A stretch of DNA of 37,493 bases from IMG/VR virus record IMGVR_UViG_2585427621_000010; one strand, written 5' to 3'. Of this stretch, positions 27,001 through 33,000 are shown piece by piece. Position numbers: made by a program. Numbering within the stretch: the first letter of the stretch is position 1; each line of letters opens with the position of its first letter. Source of the DNA: a virus (lineage: Duplodnaviria; Heunggongvirae; Uroviricota; Caudoviricetes).

Positions 27001-30000
27001 AGCCGAAAATAAAGGGATAACGATGATAGTTTGAGAAAAACAGAAATAACACTTTTGTGGCAAAGCATGGTGCCGGGTGCCTCCCGGTGAATTCAGTATC
27101 AGCACCTGAATCCGCGATTACCCCATATTCCTTCTTGCTGATTGCCCCACCGCACAGGGGGATTCACCATGCAGAAGTGTTTTTAATAAACAGCAAACAA
27201 AAAAATCAAGCATTATGCAGGCTGTTTCTTTTTATCACCGGCCACAGCAATACCATAATGCCGCAGACCAGCACCCCATCCGCCAGCACCGACATGATTC
27301 TGCTGGTGAAATCCACCATCACCACCAGAAACAGCAGGAGTGCAGCCACAGTCAGGCGCAGTTTTACCGTCACAGGTAATTCTCCAGACGAAGACCCAGA
27401 ACACCGGCAATCTCTTCCAGCACCTTGCGCTCTTCCGGCTCAATTTCGCCGTCTGCCTCCGCAATGGCCACCGCCACATCCAGCACATCTTCCGCTTCAC
27501 GCGTATCGTGTTTCACATCCTCGATCTCACGTAACGCCGCACGACGACCAGTTTTAAAGTTCGTATCCAGCTGACCGATAATGGTTGCGCTAATCGCATT
27601 AATTTCTGACGTAAACGCGTACAGCGCAGGCTGATTACGCAGTACCTGTTCGATCTTCGCTTTCTCGGATGCCTCACATTCACCATCTGCACAGGCCACC
27701 AGGTATGCGGCGTTAATCACCACCTGTGCCAGATCGCGTTTTTCAAACTTTTTAATTTCCGTTGCCGCTCTGCGGGCTTTTTTTACCAAAAATACCAAAC
27801 ATCGTGACGTTCCTTTGGGTGGGTGAGCCAACGCCCGGGAGCGATCTGCCCACAGAGAAAGTCACACTGACCACTCCATAAGCTCCCCCCGAAAGGCTCT
27901 GTGGTTGGTATGCGCCGGGCGTGGTGCGGATACAAAAAAGGTCCGCAAAAGCGAGCGAGGGAAAATAAGTGTGGTACGTTGTACTGGGTTCGAACCAGTG
28001 ACCGATTGCTTAGAAGGCAATTGCTCTGTCCGGCTGAGCTAAAAACGCAGAATACCGATAATGGACCGCCATCGGAGACTCGAACCCCGCGAAACCAGCT
28101 TCGAAGGCTGGCGTTCTATCCCGATGAGCTAATGGCGGTATGTGATGGTGGCCCTTGCTGGATTTGAACCAGCGGCCTGGCGATTATGAGTCGCTCGCTC
28201 TCACCACTGAGCTAAAGGGCCGGGCGCAGGATAATAACGTTACGAAATCAATGTTGCAAGCATTCAAGAATCACCTGGTTAAAAATTACCCTTGCTTCCT
28301 CCACCAGCGCATTCACCATGTCTATCCGAGATAAGTGGCACAAAAAAACCCGCTTGTGGGCGGGTTTTGTTTGCTTTTGCCATCACGTACAAAATCGGCA
28401 AAATATCAGATTTGCATGAAATATATGCCTTTCAATCTACTTTTGCAACACTTTGCTTTGAAAATGCCGCCTTTTGTTTTGAACGCGTTCTCATTACAAA
28501 CAATAAAGCCTCACTATCCAGTCGGTGAAAAATGTGTTTCATTGCAACCCAGTGACGAGTAAATGTTTTGGACCAGTTTTTAGTTGTCACTCCCACCAGT
28601 AATGCCAGCTCCTTGTATTCATAACCTTCCCCACCAAAAAGTTCTGCTTTTACTGCCTGCGCCGCCAGCCAGATTAATTTTTTCAGGCGTTCCTGCGTTT
28701 TCCCTGCAATTTTTCTGGTACCGGATTGAGTATTAAATTCATTCCACGCCCACTGTGTTATCGCGATCTGATATTCCCAACAAATACTCCCGCTGTAACA
28801 CCACAACAACCAGGCTTTATGATGTTCTTCAAGAGACAGAACAGCCCGCCGCCACGATGATGTCGAAAACTCAACCGGACTGACCAGAGGAATTGACGTC
28901 ACCTTCGCCAGCGATTGCTTTCCCGGGATTGGTGGATTATCCCGCGTTATCATTTTTCCAGTCACTTCATCGCGGTACCGGATTTTTTTTCGCCTGTAAC
29001 GCCCTGTATCGAACATGACATTCTCCTGCCAGGCTTCAAGCTGACCTTTTGTTGCCCCACTCAAATCGGCGGTAGCGATAATGAGCAGCTCACGCACAAA
29101 CTGTAAATAGTGGTTATTCATGCGCACTCCAGTTCTGTGATTTTTATCCCCAGCCGCTCACCAGGAACGAGCTGACCGCGCACAATATTGATTTCATCAA
29201 ACTGCTCATCGTCCATTAGCAACCCCGCATGCGTCAGCGCATCCAGCGGCGCTTTCAGAATATTGTCCAGGTCACGGCGGCGCTTATCCGGTGGCTCGGC
29301 AATAATCTTTATCGCCAGCCTTCCGGACAGGCTTAATTTCAGCCGCTGCTGGCGAACAATAAGCGCCACAGCCCGGCGATAACGCTCACCGGCTTTTGAT
29401 ACAAAATATGTGCTGCCACGACGTCGCCAGTAGGTGTTCACCGTCGGCGGGTAAGGTAAAACCAAATCTATGAGCATCAGTCACCTCTTTTACCCGAGCA
29501 CGCCAGTCGCAAAGGCGTGATCAAGAAAACGAAAAATTAACTCAATCTGAGAGCCGTACTTTTTCTCAAACTCCAGCGGGTCTGCATGAAGTTCGTTGTG
29601 GTGCTCCCGGCACAACGGTAGCGTGAAAATATCGTGGGCCTTTGTCCCCATTCCCCCCTGACCATGACCAATCAGGTGATGCGGATCGTCAGCAGGCTTA
29701 CCACAACACGCACACGGCTGTGTCTTTACCCAGCGCGTGTATTTCTCATTAACCCAGCGGCAACGTTTAGGCCGCCTCATGAACGATTCAGGAGACTCCG
29801 GATCAACGGCGATACTGACAACCGTTTTTTTCTGTGGTGGATTTTGTTGCTGGTGGACGTGAAGTGGCAGCGCAATATTTTTTGTGCGCTGCTTCAGTAT
29901 GCTGATGGCTGTCTGTTCTCCCGGTACGATGTCACTCTCACGGTATACGGAGCGGATTTTTTCCGCTGGTAATCCCAGCGAACGACGCGCTACTGCCTCA

Positions 30001-33000
30001 GGTAGTGCATCCACCACCTGATTGCAGGCCGCCCACCAGGATAATTCAGCCAGCGATAATTCACGCTCCTGTGTGCCATTCATTGCGTGACGAATGACGT
30101 CAATCATCCATGCTGACAGGTTTTGGTGAGCAAGTTGCTCAAGTGATTCGGAGGTCTGGTCACGCAACTGGTTGTCGCAGTGCCAGCACAACACCATTGC
30201 GCCGGTACCATAACGGTGAATGACGGTTTCACTGTGGTGATAATCGCCGTGTGGCCACTGGCAGGATTTAACATGGCGCAGTAACCAGTCAGACAGTGCG
30301 CCAGCGCCACCAGCAGCACGAATCACTCGTTCGTCGCTGAAAAATGGCAGTAATGATTTATCCTCCGCCAGCGGCTGGCGAACGGCAGGAACGACCCCGG
30401 ACGGCAGATTACGCATGCTTTTCGGTTCCGGCTCCACCAGTACCCGGGTATTGTGGAATACCGGCATGGATTCACGGCCCGGCTTAACGATCACCAGCCC
30501 GAGTTCCGGTACCAGAACAGGTCGAAGTAATACCCGCACGTTACCTCCAGATGCGTTGCTGGAATGTGCGGGACGGACGCGGTGGGCGTTCGGAGTAAGG
30601 AAGCCTGACGGAGATTATCCAGTGACGATAATCGAGACTGAGGGCTTTCTTAACCTCGTATCCGCGCCTGCGGTAACACTGAATCAGCCATTCAGCCTGT
30701 TCTTCGGTGCAGGGGTCGTGCTGATACCAGTCAGATTTGAATGCATGAGAACGCCGCCCGTGCCTGCTGGCAGGGGCGGCAGAGTTATCCGAATTGTAAA
30801 ATTTGGTATCGTGCGCCATCTGTTTTCTCTGCTGGCGCAGCAGGTGCCAGTTGTTCAGGCTGACGGATGGATTGTAAACCAGAACGACCAGAAAAAACAA
30901 AACCCGCCGAAGCGGGTTAAGTGCGGGTGCGTTGAGGATGCCTGACACATCAGCGGTGGCGAGGGATTTCTCCCCCGCCTGGTCTCTTACTCCTCAGGTT
31001 CGTAAGCTGTGAAGACAGCGACCTCCGTCTGGCCGGTTCGGATTCGTACCTCGCAGAGGTCTTTCCTCGTTACCAGTGCCGTCACTATGACGGTTAAACA
31101 GATGACGATCAGGGCGATTAACATCGCCTTTTGCTGCTTCATAACCTGCTTCTCCTTGCCTTTCGGCGCGTAAGAGGCTAACCTACGTTTGTGAAGCATA
31201 GATTGGGCCTCAGATTAATGTTAAGCGTCTTGCAGGACGCGTAATGTTAACTGGGGCTTTTCTCTGTCTGCCTTACGGTGGCATGCCCGAGGCAGACAGC
31301 CTCAAGCACCCGCAGCAATTCTACTTAACTCTCGCTTTACAGCAAACCGTTTTGCCCGATATGGGAATTCCCATACGGAATGAATTCAGTTCCCCAGGCG
31401 CTCCATCAAAAACACAACCAGGCAGTAAACACCCACAACAGCAATAACAGCCAGAGCGCCTTCCATTACCAGTGAAATATCATCCGACATATTCCCTCCC
31501 TTGGTGTGAATCCCGGCGAACGTTTTTACCCCCACCGACAAATAACATATACTAGAAAAGCAATAGCTATAGCAACGCCTGCAAATGCATCTGGCCGGCT
31601 CATTGGTTCTCCCCCTGTGTCGCTTCTACTGCGATCTGACTGGCGTATTCGTTAATGGTAACGATAAGTTCTTGCTCGGCCTCATCCAGACAACTACCGA
31701 TACCTCGCCTGTCCACTTCAGAAGCATCGAAATCTGCACGAAGCCTGGCGACCTTCAGGATTGCGGACAACACCTCATCAGGGATTGCCGGAGAGTTGGT
31801 TGACGTTTCCGAGATTATCCGAAAATTATTGGTTGACGAACCCTTATTTTCCCGAAAGTTTCCAGCCTGAAGCATGGCGGCGCGGTGACACCAGATAATC
31901 CAGCCAAGCGCCATATCCCATGCCATGTATTCTCTATCGCCATTTTTTGCTCTGCGGCGATCTACAGATTCCCCGAAACGCTTCTCCATAAATAATTCAT
32001 AGGCTGCCCGTTCATCCGATACTGATGCCAGTGATGCCAGTGCAATTTTTAATGCGGTAAGCATGTTGTTTTGATCTTCATCGAGTCCGAACGGTATTTC
32101 ATCCCGTGATGACTCAATTCCGGTAATCGTGTTCTGTAGCCATTCTTTGGTTAATTCAGTCATTTTTCACTACCGCCCTTTCGGGCGGTCTCCTGATGTT
32201 CTGAGGGTGCAGGAATCCCTCCGGTTAAGGATTTAATAAAAATCATTTCTGATTTAAATTTTCAGTGTTTAGTTGTTGGTTTATAGCCTTTATGCTTCGG
32301 CCTTATTTCTCAGCCATACACAAACAGGACCATCTTCGGTGTCATGTATCGAACCGATAAACCATCCCTCACCTTCTGGTCGCTCAGGTTCCCATGCTGA
32401 AATATCAGGGCCATCTGCGTCCAGATTAAAATCATCTTCATCCATACTACGGATAGCCCACTGAAGATTATTTTTCTCCATCCAGGCGTTAAACTCTTCC
32501 GTTGAAATATATTCCCGACCATCACAGAATTTTTCATATTCAGGATGCGTCCAGCAGCCATATTCATTACGTTCCACTGGCATTTCTTTAATTACGCTCA
32601 TTTACCCCCCTTATTTAATTTTCTACGACACTTTTTACAATCATCTGGACTTTCGAATGTATCCGGCTCACGCTCATTGCCAAAATACATCCACCCACCG
32701 CAAATACTTGTTATTTCACCTTCAGCAAAATAATGATGTTTTTTCGCCATAAGTGACCTTGCCCAGCCCGGATTCGTTTTACTCACTTGTTGCCTCCTTT
32801 GCGAAGCTCTGCGACTAACTCGTCACATATGTGCGTCAAAGAGCAAAGTTTGATTGCTGGATGTTCGCGCACCATCTCCACACCCTGCGCCCGCAATTCT
32901 GCCAGAAAAGCGTAGGGGTCAGTTTTTTCACTGTGGTACATGGCATCATAGATAATCATTGCAGCGACACCTGCCTGTCCTGCATCTGTGACGGATATAT

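What the first reader, a model, noticed from the sequence alone, without database searches (positions are those of the whole stretch)
29490..30539. YdfU-like DUF968 protein with an HNH-like C-terminal motif next to rusA
The 349-aa product ends with a Cys/His cluster (CACCGKPADDPHHLIGHG...LCREHHNELH) that resembles an HNH nuclease or zinc finger. It sits directly upstream of the RusA resolvase, suggesting a DNA-processing role in the nin region.
Basis: inference. Interest (0 to 1): 0.35.

Follow-up and report, generated by a model that had tools for sequence, protein, structure and literature searches.

The report
YdfU-type phage HNH nuclease gene
This is an intact copy of the well-known prophage gene ydfU, whose C-terminal end is a zinc-finger HNH nuclease module already catalogued in the literature, so the finding is correct but ordinary; only its N-terminal domain remains unexplained.

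Summary
The 349-aa ORF is real and lies at 29490-30539, but on the minus strand. It is identical to RefSeq WP_001265075.1 ("DUF968 domain-containing protein") and 85% identical to E. coli K-12 YdfU. It sits in the nin region of a defective lambdoid prophage of O157-type E. coli, packed tightly as 92-aa gene > ydfU-like > rusA > Q.

The C-terminal ~110 residues are a zinc-finger His-Me (HNH) module. Evidence: Pfam DUF968 (E 7e-77), PHROG_96 "HNH endonuclease", profile links to YbcO (3g27), P1 Ref and staphylococcal phage Gp16, and a predicted beta-beta-alpha fold. The motif CxxC...HH...D...C-R-E-H-H-x3-H matches residue for residue the sites mutated in Gp16, an experimentally shown nickase. Jablonska et al. 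2017 already placed YdfU/DUF968 in the His-Me finger superfamily and noted RusA and Q as neighbours, so this is already known.

What this analysis adds:
- Across 80 species loci the constant downstream neighbour is Q. RusA is nearby in 59 of 80, but in variable order.
- The N-terminal 158 residues are an orphan domain with a probable second zinc site.
- P1 PdcB is a full-length relative that has lost the catalytic histidines.
- No biochemistry exists for YdfU itself.

The parts
29490..30539 (-). ydfU-like gene, 349 aa, GTG start (DUF968 domain-containing protein, WP_001265075.1)
   Evidence: ORF; identical RefSeq CDS; 85% identical over its full length to K-12 YdfU b1560; Pfam DUF968 E 7e-77; dN/dS 0.11
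30544..30548 (-). GGAGG ribosome-binding site, 4 nt upstream of the GTG start, inside the last codons of the upstream gene
   Evidence: read directly from the sequence
30066..30539 (-). N-terminal domain, residues 1-158; orphan fold with no Pfam family
   Evidence: AF2 domain model pLDDT 89.8; no significant PDB fold match (best E 1.4); no Pfam hit in 29 diverse members; not NinB/Orf-like (hhalign 0.1%); matches phrog_11007 of unknown function
30174..30263 (-). N-domain Cys/His cluster, residues 93-122 (C93, H101, C118, W119, C121, D122); probable second zinc site at a beta-hairpin/helix junction
   Evidence: C93 and C118 kept in 109/109; position 101 is H 90 / C 17 / N 2; position 121 is C 82 / H 27; D122 in 106/109; hairpin E105-110/E113-118 followed by helix 119-125. 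Zinc binding is inferred.
29823..30065 (-). Middle helical region and linker, residues 159-239 (first part of the Pfam DUF968 model; 225-239 predicted disordered)
   Evidence: AF2 pLDDT below 50 for 225-239; no relation to NinB or to the Gp16 N-domain; highest dN/dS of the three regions (0.18-0.22)
29493..29822 (-). C-terminal zinc-finger His-Me (HNH) module, residues 240-349
   Evidence: hhalign against the Gp16 C-terminus 96% probability, E 2.8e-9; YbcO 86%; Ref 77%; BFVD hits to stand-alone ~110-aa phage DUF968/HNH proteins, E 2e-7, TM 0.76; beta-beta-alpha at E285-288, E306-309, H311-319
29586..29714 (-). HNH core, residues 276-318. Zn ligands C276, C279, C310, H313; nuclease centre H287, H288, D303, H314, H318
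   Evidence: conservation 107-109 of 109; one-to-one match to Gp16 C145/C148/C181/H184 and H157/H185/H189
29118..29477 (-). rusA (Holliday-junction resolvase), 12 nt downstream of the ydfU-like gene
   Evidence: Pfam RusA E 3e-16, PHROG_34; RefSeq annotation
28432..29121 (-). Q antiterminator gene; its ATG overlaps the rusA stop codon (ATGA)
   Evidence: Pfam Phage_antiter_Q E 1.5e-90; RefSeq coordinates; sequence
30541..30819 (-). 92-aa gene of unknown function; its stop codon lies one base before the ydfU-like GTG
   Evidence: RefSeq CDS WP_001310296.1; phrog_1212; not related to K-12 Rem
30891..30918 (-). Terminator-like hairpin plus T-run between hokD and the 92-aa gene, at the head of the gene block
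   Evidence: consensus scan only; function inferred

Best explanation
The gene encodes a YdfU-family phage protein with three parts: an orphan N-terminal domain (residues 1-158) with a probable structural zinc site, a helical linker, and a C-terminal zinc-finger His-Me (HNH) nuclease module with a complete active site. It is a delayed-early gene of a lambdoid prophage. It lies at the promoter-distal end of the nin region, behind a terminator-like hairpin, and is translationally coupled to its neighbours in the block 92-aa gene > ydfU-like > rusA > Q, so it would be made only during lytic growth or induction. Proposed mechanism (inferred by homology to staphylococcal phage PhiNM1 Gp16 and P1 Ref): C276, C279, C310 and H313 hold a structural zinc; H288 at the end of strand beta-1 acts as the general base; H287, H314 and H318 hold the catalytic divalent metal; D303 braces the hairpin. 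The module nicks or cuts DNA. The N-terminal domain takes the place that the NinB/Orf-like domain has in Gp16 and the basic tail has in Ref, and presumably supplies substrate or partner targeting, for example to branched or RecA-bound DNA. The likely role is processing of recombination or replication intermediates alongside RusA. Shown here: the ORF, family membership, the motif and its conservation, the predicted fold, the synteny and purifying selection. Inferred: catalysis, substrate, partner and biological role.
For: Family: Pfam DUF968 E 7e-77; PHROG_96 'HNH endonuclease' E 7e-176; 85% identical to K-12 YdfU. HNH relationship: HNHc_6 at 22.8 bits here and 32.2/29.9 bits (above the 26.6 cutoff) in close relatives; hhalign against Gp16 95.3% (E 2e-8), and 96% for the C-domain alone; BLASTP against Gp16 41% identity over 59 aa, E 6e-10; YbcO/3g27 86%; Ref 77% with the shared PLCRxHH motif. 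Fold: AF2 pLDDT 86.6 with beta-beta-alpha at 285-319; Foldseek PDB ranks 1-6 are all HNH domains; BFVD has 5 hits at E<=1e-3 to stand-alone DUF968/HNH modules. Active site: H287, H288, H314 and H318 kept in 107/109; C276 and D303 in 109/109; position 313 is H or C. Experiment on a homologue: Gp16 is a nickase in vitro, binds dsDNA and interacts with RecA; C148A, C181A and H184A abolish its activity in vivo and H185A and H189A weaken it (PMC12817073). These residues map to C279, C310, H313, H314 and H318 here. Context: RusA is in the same-strand flank in 59/80 species loci and Q-type genes lie immediately downstream in most; the same order is seen in the viable phage mEp460. Selection: dN/dS 0.05-0.22 in all regions. 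Literature: the His-Me group 7 assignment and a recombination hypothesis are already published.
Against: No biochemical or genetic data exist for YdfU or any full-length relative; it was still listed as uncharacterised in 2024. The HNHc_6 match of this particular protein is below Pfam's cutoff. The family profile against PDB sequences finds only 3g27, at E 0.47, and no Foldseek PDB hit is significant (best E 0.49). The P1 PdcB subgroup of the same family has lost all four catalytic histidines yet keeps the rest of the protein, so cleavage is not essential to whatever the family has in common. In Gp16 the H157A mutant (equivalent to H288) still inhibited growth, so the residue roles are not fully settled even there. 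Enrichment of RusA was not compared with a control set of nin regions that lack YdfU.
Confidence: 0.6

Rival explanations
1. Host-directed nickase. Like PhiNM1 Gp16, the protein mainly attacks the host chromosome early in lytic growth to stall host replication and favour the phage, rather than processing phage recombination intermediates.
For: The HNH core is closest to Gp16. Gp16 inhibits host growth and condenses the nucleoid. P1 Ref also cuts the host chromosome in a RecA-dependent way (abstracts listed).
Against: The N-terminal domain, which would set the target or partner, is unrelated to that of Gp16 (hhalign 0.1%). The gene lies at the late end of the delayed-early operon, not among the first genes expressed. 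P1 PdcB is non-essential and has lost the catalytic residues. No toxicity data were found for ydfU.
Confidence: 0.15
2. Mainly non-catalytic. The family's shared job is DNA or protein binding through two zinc modules, tied to the switch to late transcription or packaging, and the nuclease centre is an accessory of the lambdoid branch.
For: The gene sits immediately upstream of the late-gene activator in two unrelated systems: Q families in most of 76 lambdoid loci and lpa in P1-like phages. The PdcB subgroup keeps C93, C118, W119, D122 and the four zinc-ligand positions of the C-terminal finger but has lost H287, H288, H314 and H318. The N-domain residues are the most invariant in the family.
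Against: In the lambdoid branch the four histidines are kept in 107/109 and the C-domain has the lowest dN/dS (0.05-0.06), which argues for a selected catalytic site. The position before Q may simply mark the end of the nin region. No DNA-binding or regulatory domain was detected.
Confidence: 0.12
3. Selfish homing-type HNH endonuclease: a free-standing mobile gene that spreads by cutting alleles that lack it.
For: Many phage HNH genes are mobile. The region is present in 1 to 10 places per E. coli genome. Authors caution that HNH gene position can mislead.
Against: The position is fixed, directly upstream of Q, in loci from about 80 species, with coupled starts and stops. The conserved 158-aa N-domain is unlike known homing-endonuclease DNA-binding modules. 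Selection is purifying over the full length. The multiple copies per genome reflect multiple lambdoid prophages.
Confidence: 0.05
4. Packaging-associated HNH, like HK97 gp74, that assists terminase in cos cleavage.
For: HNH proteins are a widespread part of phage packaging machines (cited).
Against: Such genes lie next to the terminase genes. Here the gene is about 9 kb from terS, with Q, tRNAs and the lysis genes in between. It precedes Q in the species loci. The closest profiles are HNHc_6, Ref and YbcO, not the gp74-type.
Confidence: 0.03

Closest known systems
E. coli K-12 YdfU (b1560, Qin prophage) / Pfam DUF968 (PF06147); His-Me finger group 7 of Jablonska et al. 2017
   Same: Same length (349 aa), 85% identical with no gaps. 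Same three-part architecture and the same Cys/His motifs, including the CxxH variant at position 313. Same nin-region location before Q. Classified as a His-Me finger with RusA and Q noted as neighbours.
   Different: In Qin, ydfU is followed directly by the Q gene (ydfT) with no rusA; here rusA lies between them. Neither protein has been characterised experimentally.
Staphylococcus phage PhiNM1 Gp16 (Pfam HNHc_6, PF16784), a RecA-interacting HNH nickase (NAR 2026, PMC12817073)
   Same: The HNH core is 41% identical over 59 residues, with identical strings C-x-x-C-G-K-P and L-C-R-E-H-H-N-E-x-H-A. Gp16 itself scores above the DUF968 cutoff (29.1 bits). It is an early phage gene, and a RusA gene lies about 3 kb downstream in PhiNM1.
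   Different: Gp16 has a NinB/Orf-like N-domain. The window protein has an unrelated 158-aa N-domain plus a linker (hhalign 0.1-0.4%). The hosts and genome contexts differ. RecA interaction is untested here.
Phage P1 Ref (PF16786; PDB 3plw), a RecA-dependent HNH endonuclease
   Same: The profile alignment covers the HNH core (77% probability, E 2e-5, 38% identity over 56 columns) and shows the same P-C-x-x-C ... H-H ... L-P-L-C-R-x-H-H motif.
   Different: Ref has a basic, disordered 76-residue N-terminus instead of a folded domain (abstract listed). The Pfam RecA_dep_nuc match here is only E 0.33. Ref lacks the H-x3-H spacing after CRWHH.
YbcO of DLP12 / phage 82 (DUF1364; PDB 3g27)
   Same: Minimal 96-aa version of the same module (hhalign 86%, E 5e-6, 75 columns). 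It also lies directly upstream of rusA in a nin region. Predicted to be a nuclease from its structure.
   Different: It has no N-terminal domain or linker, has CxxCH rather than CxxHH, and has a single His (AH) in place of HH.
Phage P1 PdcB
   Same: Full-length relative (26% identity over 91% of the query) with the same N-domain invariants and the four zinc-ligand positions of the C-terminal finger. It lies immediately upstream of the late-gene activator.
   Different: It has lost H287, H288, H314 and H318, so it is a predicted pseudo-nuclease. It is non-essential in P1 and its function is unknown.

Membership tests
Pfam DUF968 (PF06147) / YdfU family | Score above the Pfam gathering cutoff (27.8 bits) across the whole model | tested here: met
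   257.6 bits, E 7.4e-77, model positions 1-171 of 171 on residues 160-346; 85% identical to K-12 YdfU
His-Me finger (HNH) superfamily | Beta-beta-alpha-metal fold | tested here: met
   AF2 model (pLDDT 86.6; 95-98 in this region) has E285-288, E306-309 and H311-319. BFVD matches to stand-alone DUF968/HNH proteins reach TM 0.76, E 2e-7. PDB Foldseek ranks 1-6 are HNH domains but none is significant (best E 0.49). This is a predicted fold, not a solved one.
His-Me finger (HNH) superfamily | Catalytic His at the end of strand beta-1, plus metal-ligand residues in the helix | tested here: met
   H288 ends E285-288; H314 and H318 lie in helix 311-319. All are kept in 107/109 relatives and align to Gp16 H157, H185 and H189.
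His-Me finger (HNH) superfamily | Significant profile relationship to bona fide HNH proteins | tested here: met
   hhalign against Gp16 95-96%, YbcO 86%, Ref 77%. HNHc_6 is above its cutoff in 83%-identical relatives. PHROG_96 is annotated as HNH endonuclease.
His-Me finger (HNH) superfamily | Metal-dependent nuclease activity | not testable with these tools
Pfam HNHc_6 (PF16784; Gp16 / phiETA Orf20 type) | Score above the 26.6-bit cutoff, and a NinB/Orf-like N-terminal domain fused to the HNH | tested here: not met
   22.8 bits, covering only model positions 123-175 of 204. The N-domain and middle region against lambda NinB and the Gp16 N-domain give hhalign probabilities of 0.1-0.4%. The protein shares the HNH module but not the architecture.
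RecA-dependent nuclease Ref (PF16786) | Pfam score above the 26.9-bit cutoff; nuclease activity that depends on RecA filaments | tested here: not met
   11.6 bits, E 0.33. The core is homologous by hhalign. RecA dependence cannot be tested here.
NinG / Rap (PF05766) | Sequence relationship to lambda NinG | tested here: not met
   hhalign 8% probability over 18 columns, limited to the CxxC; no Pfam NinG hit
Packaging HNH (HK97 gp74 type) | Gene adjacent to the terminase genes / cos | tested here: not met
   The gene lies between the replication genes and Q, about 9 kb from terS. Q families lie downstream in most of 76 species loci.
Known anti-phage defence systems (PADLOC) | Match to any PADLOC-DB profile | tested here: not met
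   No family at E <= 0.01

The most novel reading that the evidence does not exclude
YdfU and PdcB form one two-zinc-module family that phages as different as lambdoids and P1 keep immediately upstream of their late-gene activator (Q or Lpa). Its conserved core would be the orphan N-terminal domain plus the zinc scaffold, not the nuclease centre, which P1 has lost. On this reading the family's shared function is recognition of a DNA structure or a host partner that links replication or recombination state to the late phase, and the HNH active site is an add-on of the lambdoid branch.
Probability: 0.15. Interest if true: 0.5.

Novelty: already known. Interest (0 to 1): 0.2.

Why it matters
The practical value is modest. 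The gene family is very common: the 2.9-kb region matches 4,782 of 5,426 complete E. coli genomes, often in several copies, including Stx-converting phages. It is still labelled "DUF968" or "hypothetical", and ydfU is still on the K-12 y-ome list. The residue-level match to the recently characterised Gp16 nickase and to P1 Ref gives a concrete, testable prediction for ydfU: a zinc-finger HNH nickase, with named residues to mutate. The analysis also marks out what is really unknown, namely the 158-residue N-terminal domain with a probable second zinc site and no detectable structural relatives. None of this would surprise a specialist, and the HNH assignment was published in 2017.

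Tried and rejected
1. Internal duplication (the N-terminal C93...C118 cluster as a second, degenerate HNH). 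BLAST of the two halves gave E 2.0. hhalign of N against C gave E 0.095, probability 0.6%, though the alignment was collinear. BLAST against Gp16 gave a weak second HSP at E 0.098. No HNH-type Pfam hit appeared in 29 diverse N-domains. Foldseek found nothing significant. The idea is not supported; only a probable zinc site remains.

2. An Orf/NinB-like domain, as claimed for 'DUF968' proteins of Gram-positive phages. hhalign probabilities of 0.1-0.4% for the N and middle regions reject it for this protein.

3. Fusion proteins as Rosetta-stone evidence. N-domain fusions to tail-fibre or J domains (P0145, P0187, P0188), a DUF968-RusA fusion (P0047) and DUF968-Q fusions (P0037) are singletons that join neighbouring or distant prophage genes. 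They look like deletions, frameshifts or assembly chimeras, so I did not use them.

4. YdfU as a positional replacement for NinG. No NinG, NinB, YbcO or YbcN was found in the 80 loci, but the search used single seeds and there was no control set, so no conclusion was drawn.

5. The full alignment A1 was too divergent for the search for related loci; a 10-sequence subset worked.

6. The upstream 92-aa gene is not Rem.

7. NCBIfam has no model for this protein, and PADLOC gave no match.

Full report
**Observation.** The window holds an ORF of 349 codons at exactly 29490..30539, but on the minus strand. The plus-strand reading of these coordinates is full of stops. The gene starts with GTG at 30539-30537. 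A GGAGG ribosome-binding site lies at 30548-30544, and the stop codon of the preceding gene (30543-30541) is one base before the GTG. L-C310-R-E-H313-H314-N-E-L-H318. Twelve bases after the stop codon, behind its own ribosome-binding site, rusA begins (29118..29477; Pfam RusA E 3e-16). The ATG of Q overlaps the rusA stop codon. RefSeq annotates the same CDS as WP_001265075.1, "DUF968 domain-containing protein".

**Where it sits.** The 2.9 kb around the gene is 100% identical to many O157-type E. coli chromosomes. It matches 4,782 of 5,426 complete E. coli genomes, with a median of 2 and up to 10 places per genome. The window is a lambdoid prophage. On the minus strand the order is cI/cro, replication O/P-like genes, several small genes, hokD, a 92-aa gene, the ydfU-like gene, rusA, Q, three tRNAs, lysis genes, terminase, head and tail. 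The prophage is defective: the capsid gene is truncated, terL is frameshifted and an IS3-family element is inserted. A terminator-like hairpin (30918-30901 plus a T-run) lies between hokD and the 92-aa gene. This fits a nin-type block that is read only under antitermination, although that step is an inference.

**Identity.** The protein is 85% identical, without gaps, to E. coli K-12 YdfU (b1560, Qin prophage). Pfam DUF968 covers residues 160-346 at E 7.4e-77. PHROG_96, annotated "HNH endonuclease", covers the whole protein at E 7e-176. NCBIfam has no model for it. An exhaustive search of 1.84 billion cluster representatives finds 3,052 relatives at E <= 1e-3, with full-length ones down to about 28% identity. 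Full-length copies occur in 173 phage records, including viable phages (mEp460, SfII, Stx2 converters, and Klebsiella, Yersinia and Vibrio phages). Some are already annotated "HNH endonuclease" or "YdfU family". Against K-12 and two other alleles, dN/dS is 0.10-0.11 overall, 0.10-0.11 in the N-domain, 0.18-0.22 in the middle and 0.05-0.06 in the C-domain. All parts are therefore under purifying selection.

**Is the C-terminus an HNH?** Yes, by several independent routes.
- Pfam HNHc_6 hits residues 271-320 at 22.8 bits, under the 26.6 cutoff. It passes the cutoff in relatives that are about 83% identical (32.2 and 29.9 bits), where HNH_5, HNH and RecA_dep_nuc also appear weakly.
- The family profile (29 diverse full-length sequences, A1) aligns to YbcO, the 96-aa protein of PDB 3g27, at 86% probability (E 5e-6). 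It aligns to P1 Ref at 77% (E 2e-5, 38% identity over 56 columns) and to PhiNM1 Gp16 at 95.3%, or 96% for the C-domain alone. Lambda NinG does not match (8%).
- An AF2 model (mean pLDDT 86.6) places a beta-hairpin plus helix at E285-288, E306-309 and H311-319.
- Foldseek against the PDB finds nothing significant, but ranks 1-6 are all HNH domains: Cas5-HNH, IscB, type I-E HNH Cascade, Gme HNH and Cap5.
- Against the viral structure library the significant hits (E down to 2e-7, TM 0.76, rmsd 0.9) are stand-alone phage proteins of about 110 aa that match only the C-terminal module. Some are labelled DUF968 and one "HNH nuclease".
- A plain profile search of PDB sequences finds only 3g27, at a non-significant E of 0.47.

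**Active site.** I aligned 109 sequences: the window protein, 80 species loci and 28 representatives. C276 and D303 are invariant. C279 is kept in 103 and C310 in 104. H287, H288, H314 and H318 are each kept in 107. Position 313 is His in 72 and Cys in 31, as expected for a zinc ligand. The 2026 study of PhiNM1 Gp16 describes a CxxC motif (C145, C148) and a CxxH motif (C181-R-E-H184), followed by H185 and H189. It shows that C148A, C181A and H184A abolish the in-vivo effect and that H185A and H189A weaken it. It also shows that the protein binds dsDNA, nicks plasmid DNA in vitro and interacts with RecA (PMC12817073). I identified Gp16 in the PhiNM1 genome (223 aa; HNHc_6 E 5e-117; it also scores 29.1 bits on DUF968, above that cutoff). 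It is 41% identical to the window protein over the core, and the strings CxxCGKP and LCREHHNE.HA are the same in both. The mapping is C279=C148, H288=H157, C310=C181, H313=H184, H314=H185 and H318=H189. P1 Ref shares LPLCRWHH. From my own knowledge, not tested here, the HH ... H-x3-H arrangement is also that of the colicin E7/E9 DNase H-N-H motif.

**The rest of the protein.** Residues 1-158 form a confidently modelled domain (pLDDT 89.8) with no significant fold match in the PDB (best E 1.4). There is no Pfam hit in any of 29 diverse members, no relation to lambda NinB/Orf or to the Gp16 N-domain, and no solved sequence relative. It holds the most invariant residues of the family. C93 and C118 are kept in 109/109 and D122 in 106/109. 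Position 101 is His or Cys in 107/109, and position 121 is Cys or His in 109/109. In the models these residues flank a beta-hairpin (105-110, 113-118) and the first turn of helix 119-125. I infer a second structural zinc site. I suspected a decayed duplicate of the HNH module, but the statistics do not support it. Residues 159-239 are helical plus a disordered linker (225-239).

**Gene neighbourhood.** In 80 loci, mostly from different Enterobacterales species and 47-93% identical, the gene immediately downstream is a Q-type antiterminator in most. Of 76 scanned, Phage_antitermQ matched 40, Antiterm 15, Phage_antiter_Q 7 and DUF1133 17. RusA is immediately downstream in only 3 of 76, all of the Escherichia/Shigella type like this window, and immediately upstream in 12 of 70. 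The commonest upstream neighbours are antirepressor-like genes (ANT/Rha 26, KilA-N 9). An iterated local search finds RusA on the same strand within the flanks in 59 of 80 loci, typically as RusA - (KilA-N/ANT gene) - YdfU-like - Q. The viable phage mEp460 has that order. In K-12, YbcO also lies directly upstream of rusA, and PhiNM1 has rusA about 3 kb downstream of gp16. The link with RusA is therefore real at the level of the module, but adjacency and order vary. I did not run a control for background RusA frequency.

**An unexpected relative.** PdcB of P1-like phages is a full-length relative (26% identity over 91% of the query, E about 1e-27). It lies immediately upstream of lpa, the P1 late-promoter activator. 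It is non-essential and its function is unknown. PdcB and two related representatives keep the N-domain invariants and the four zinc-ligand positions of the C-terminal finger, but have replaced H287, H288, H314 and H318. The nuclease centre is therefore dispensable in one branch of the family. This is the main evidence for the rival non-catalytic reading.

**What is known already.** Jablonska et al. 2017 placed DUF968 and DUF1364 together as His-Me finger group 7. They named YdfU and YbcO (3g27), listed RusA, Q and antirepressor genes as neighbours, and proposed a role in recombination. Kaur and Subramanian 2016 predicted nuclease function for YbcO from its treble-clef structure, with Ref and HNHc_6 as the best matches. 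Curtis et al. 2014 noted the zinc-finger HNH in 'DUF968' proteins. YdfU itself remains uncharacterised.

**Verdict.** The best explanation is a delayed-early, zinc-finger HNH nickase or endonuclease whose orphan N-domain supplies targeting, probably acting on recombination or replication intermediates alongside RusA (confidence about 0.6). Catalysis, substrate and role are inferred, not shown. Interest is low (0.2). The open points are the N-terminal domain and the YdfU/PdcB position before the late activators.

Noticed in passing
L089:2405-3448 (phage RCS47; also P1 and SJ46): P1-family PdcB is a full-length YdfU relative that lies immediately upstream of lpa, the late-promoter activator. It keeps the N-domain invariants and the zinc-ligand positions but has lost all four catalytic histidines, so it is a predicted pseudo-nuclease. 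It is non-essential in P1.
   Followed up: partly
window 30891-30918 (minus strand): Terminator-like hairpin (AACCCGC-TTCG-GCGGGTT plus a T-run) between hokD and the 92-aa gene, at the head of the ydfU-like/rusA/Q block. It could be the hok terminator, a nin-type terminator, or both.
   Followed up: no
window 30541-30819 (minus strand): 92-aa gene of unknown function (phrog_1212) whose stop codon lies one base before the ydfU-like start. It is not related to K-12 Rem. A 92-aa ORF also lies directly upstream of ydfU in the Qin-type loci L005-L008, a stretch where MG1655 lists no gene.
   Followed up: partly
window 1-28400 (annotation via L085 and L001): The prophage is defective. The major capsid gene is truncated, terL is frameshifted, and an IS3-family element (IS1203) is inserted between the holin gene and a SASA-family esterase gene. 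[quoted passage not shown]
   Followed up: no
window 28146-28221 (minus strand): ARAGORN calls this tRNA Met(CAT), while RefSeq calls it tRNA-Ile. It is the first of three tRNAs (with two Arg) between Q and the lysis region.
   Followed up: no
P0037, P0038, P0041 (607 aa); P0047 (447 aa); P0145, P0187, P0188: Database proteins that fuse YdfU to Q, to RusA, or to tail-fibre/J domains. They are singletons or near-singletons that most likely arise from stop-codon loss, deletions in decaying prophages or assembly chimeras, and should not be read as natural domain fusions.
   Followed up: partly
L007, L019, L061, L062 (genome contigs): Several YdfU-like loci sit in assemblies labelled Veillonella, Caulobacter, Vagococcus or Actinomycetes. 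They are 50-85% identical to the window's protein, like the enterobacterial loci, which suggests contamination or mis-binning rather than true hosts.
   Followed up: no
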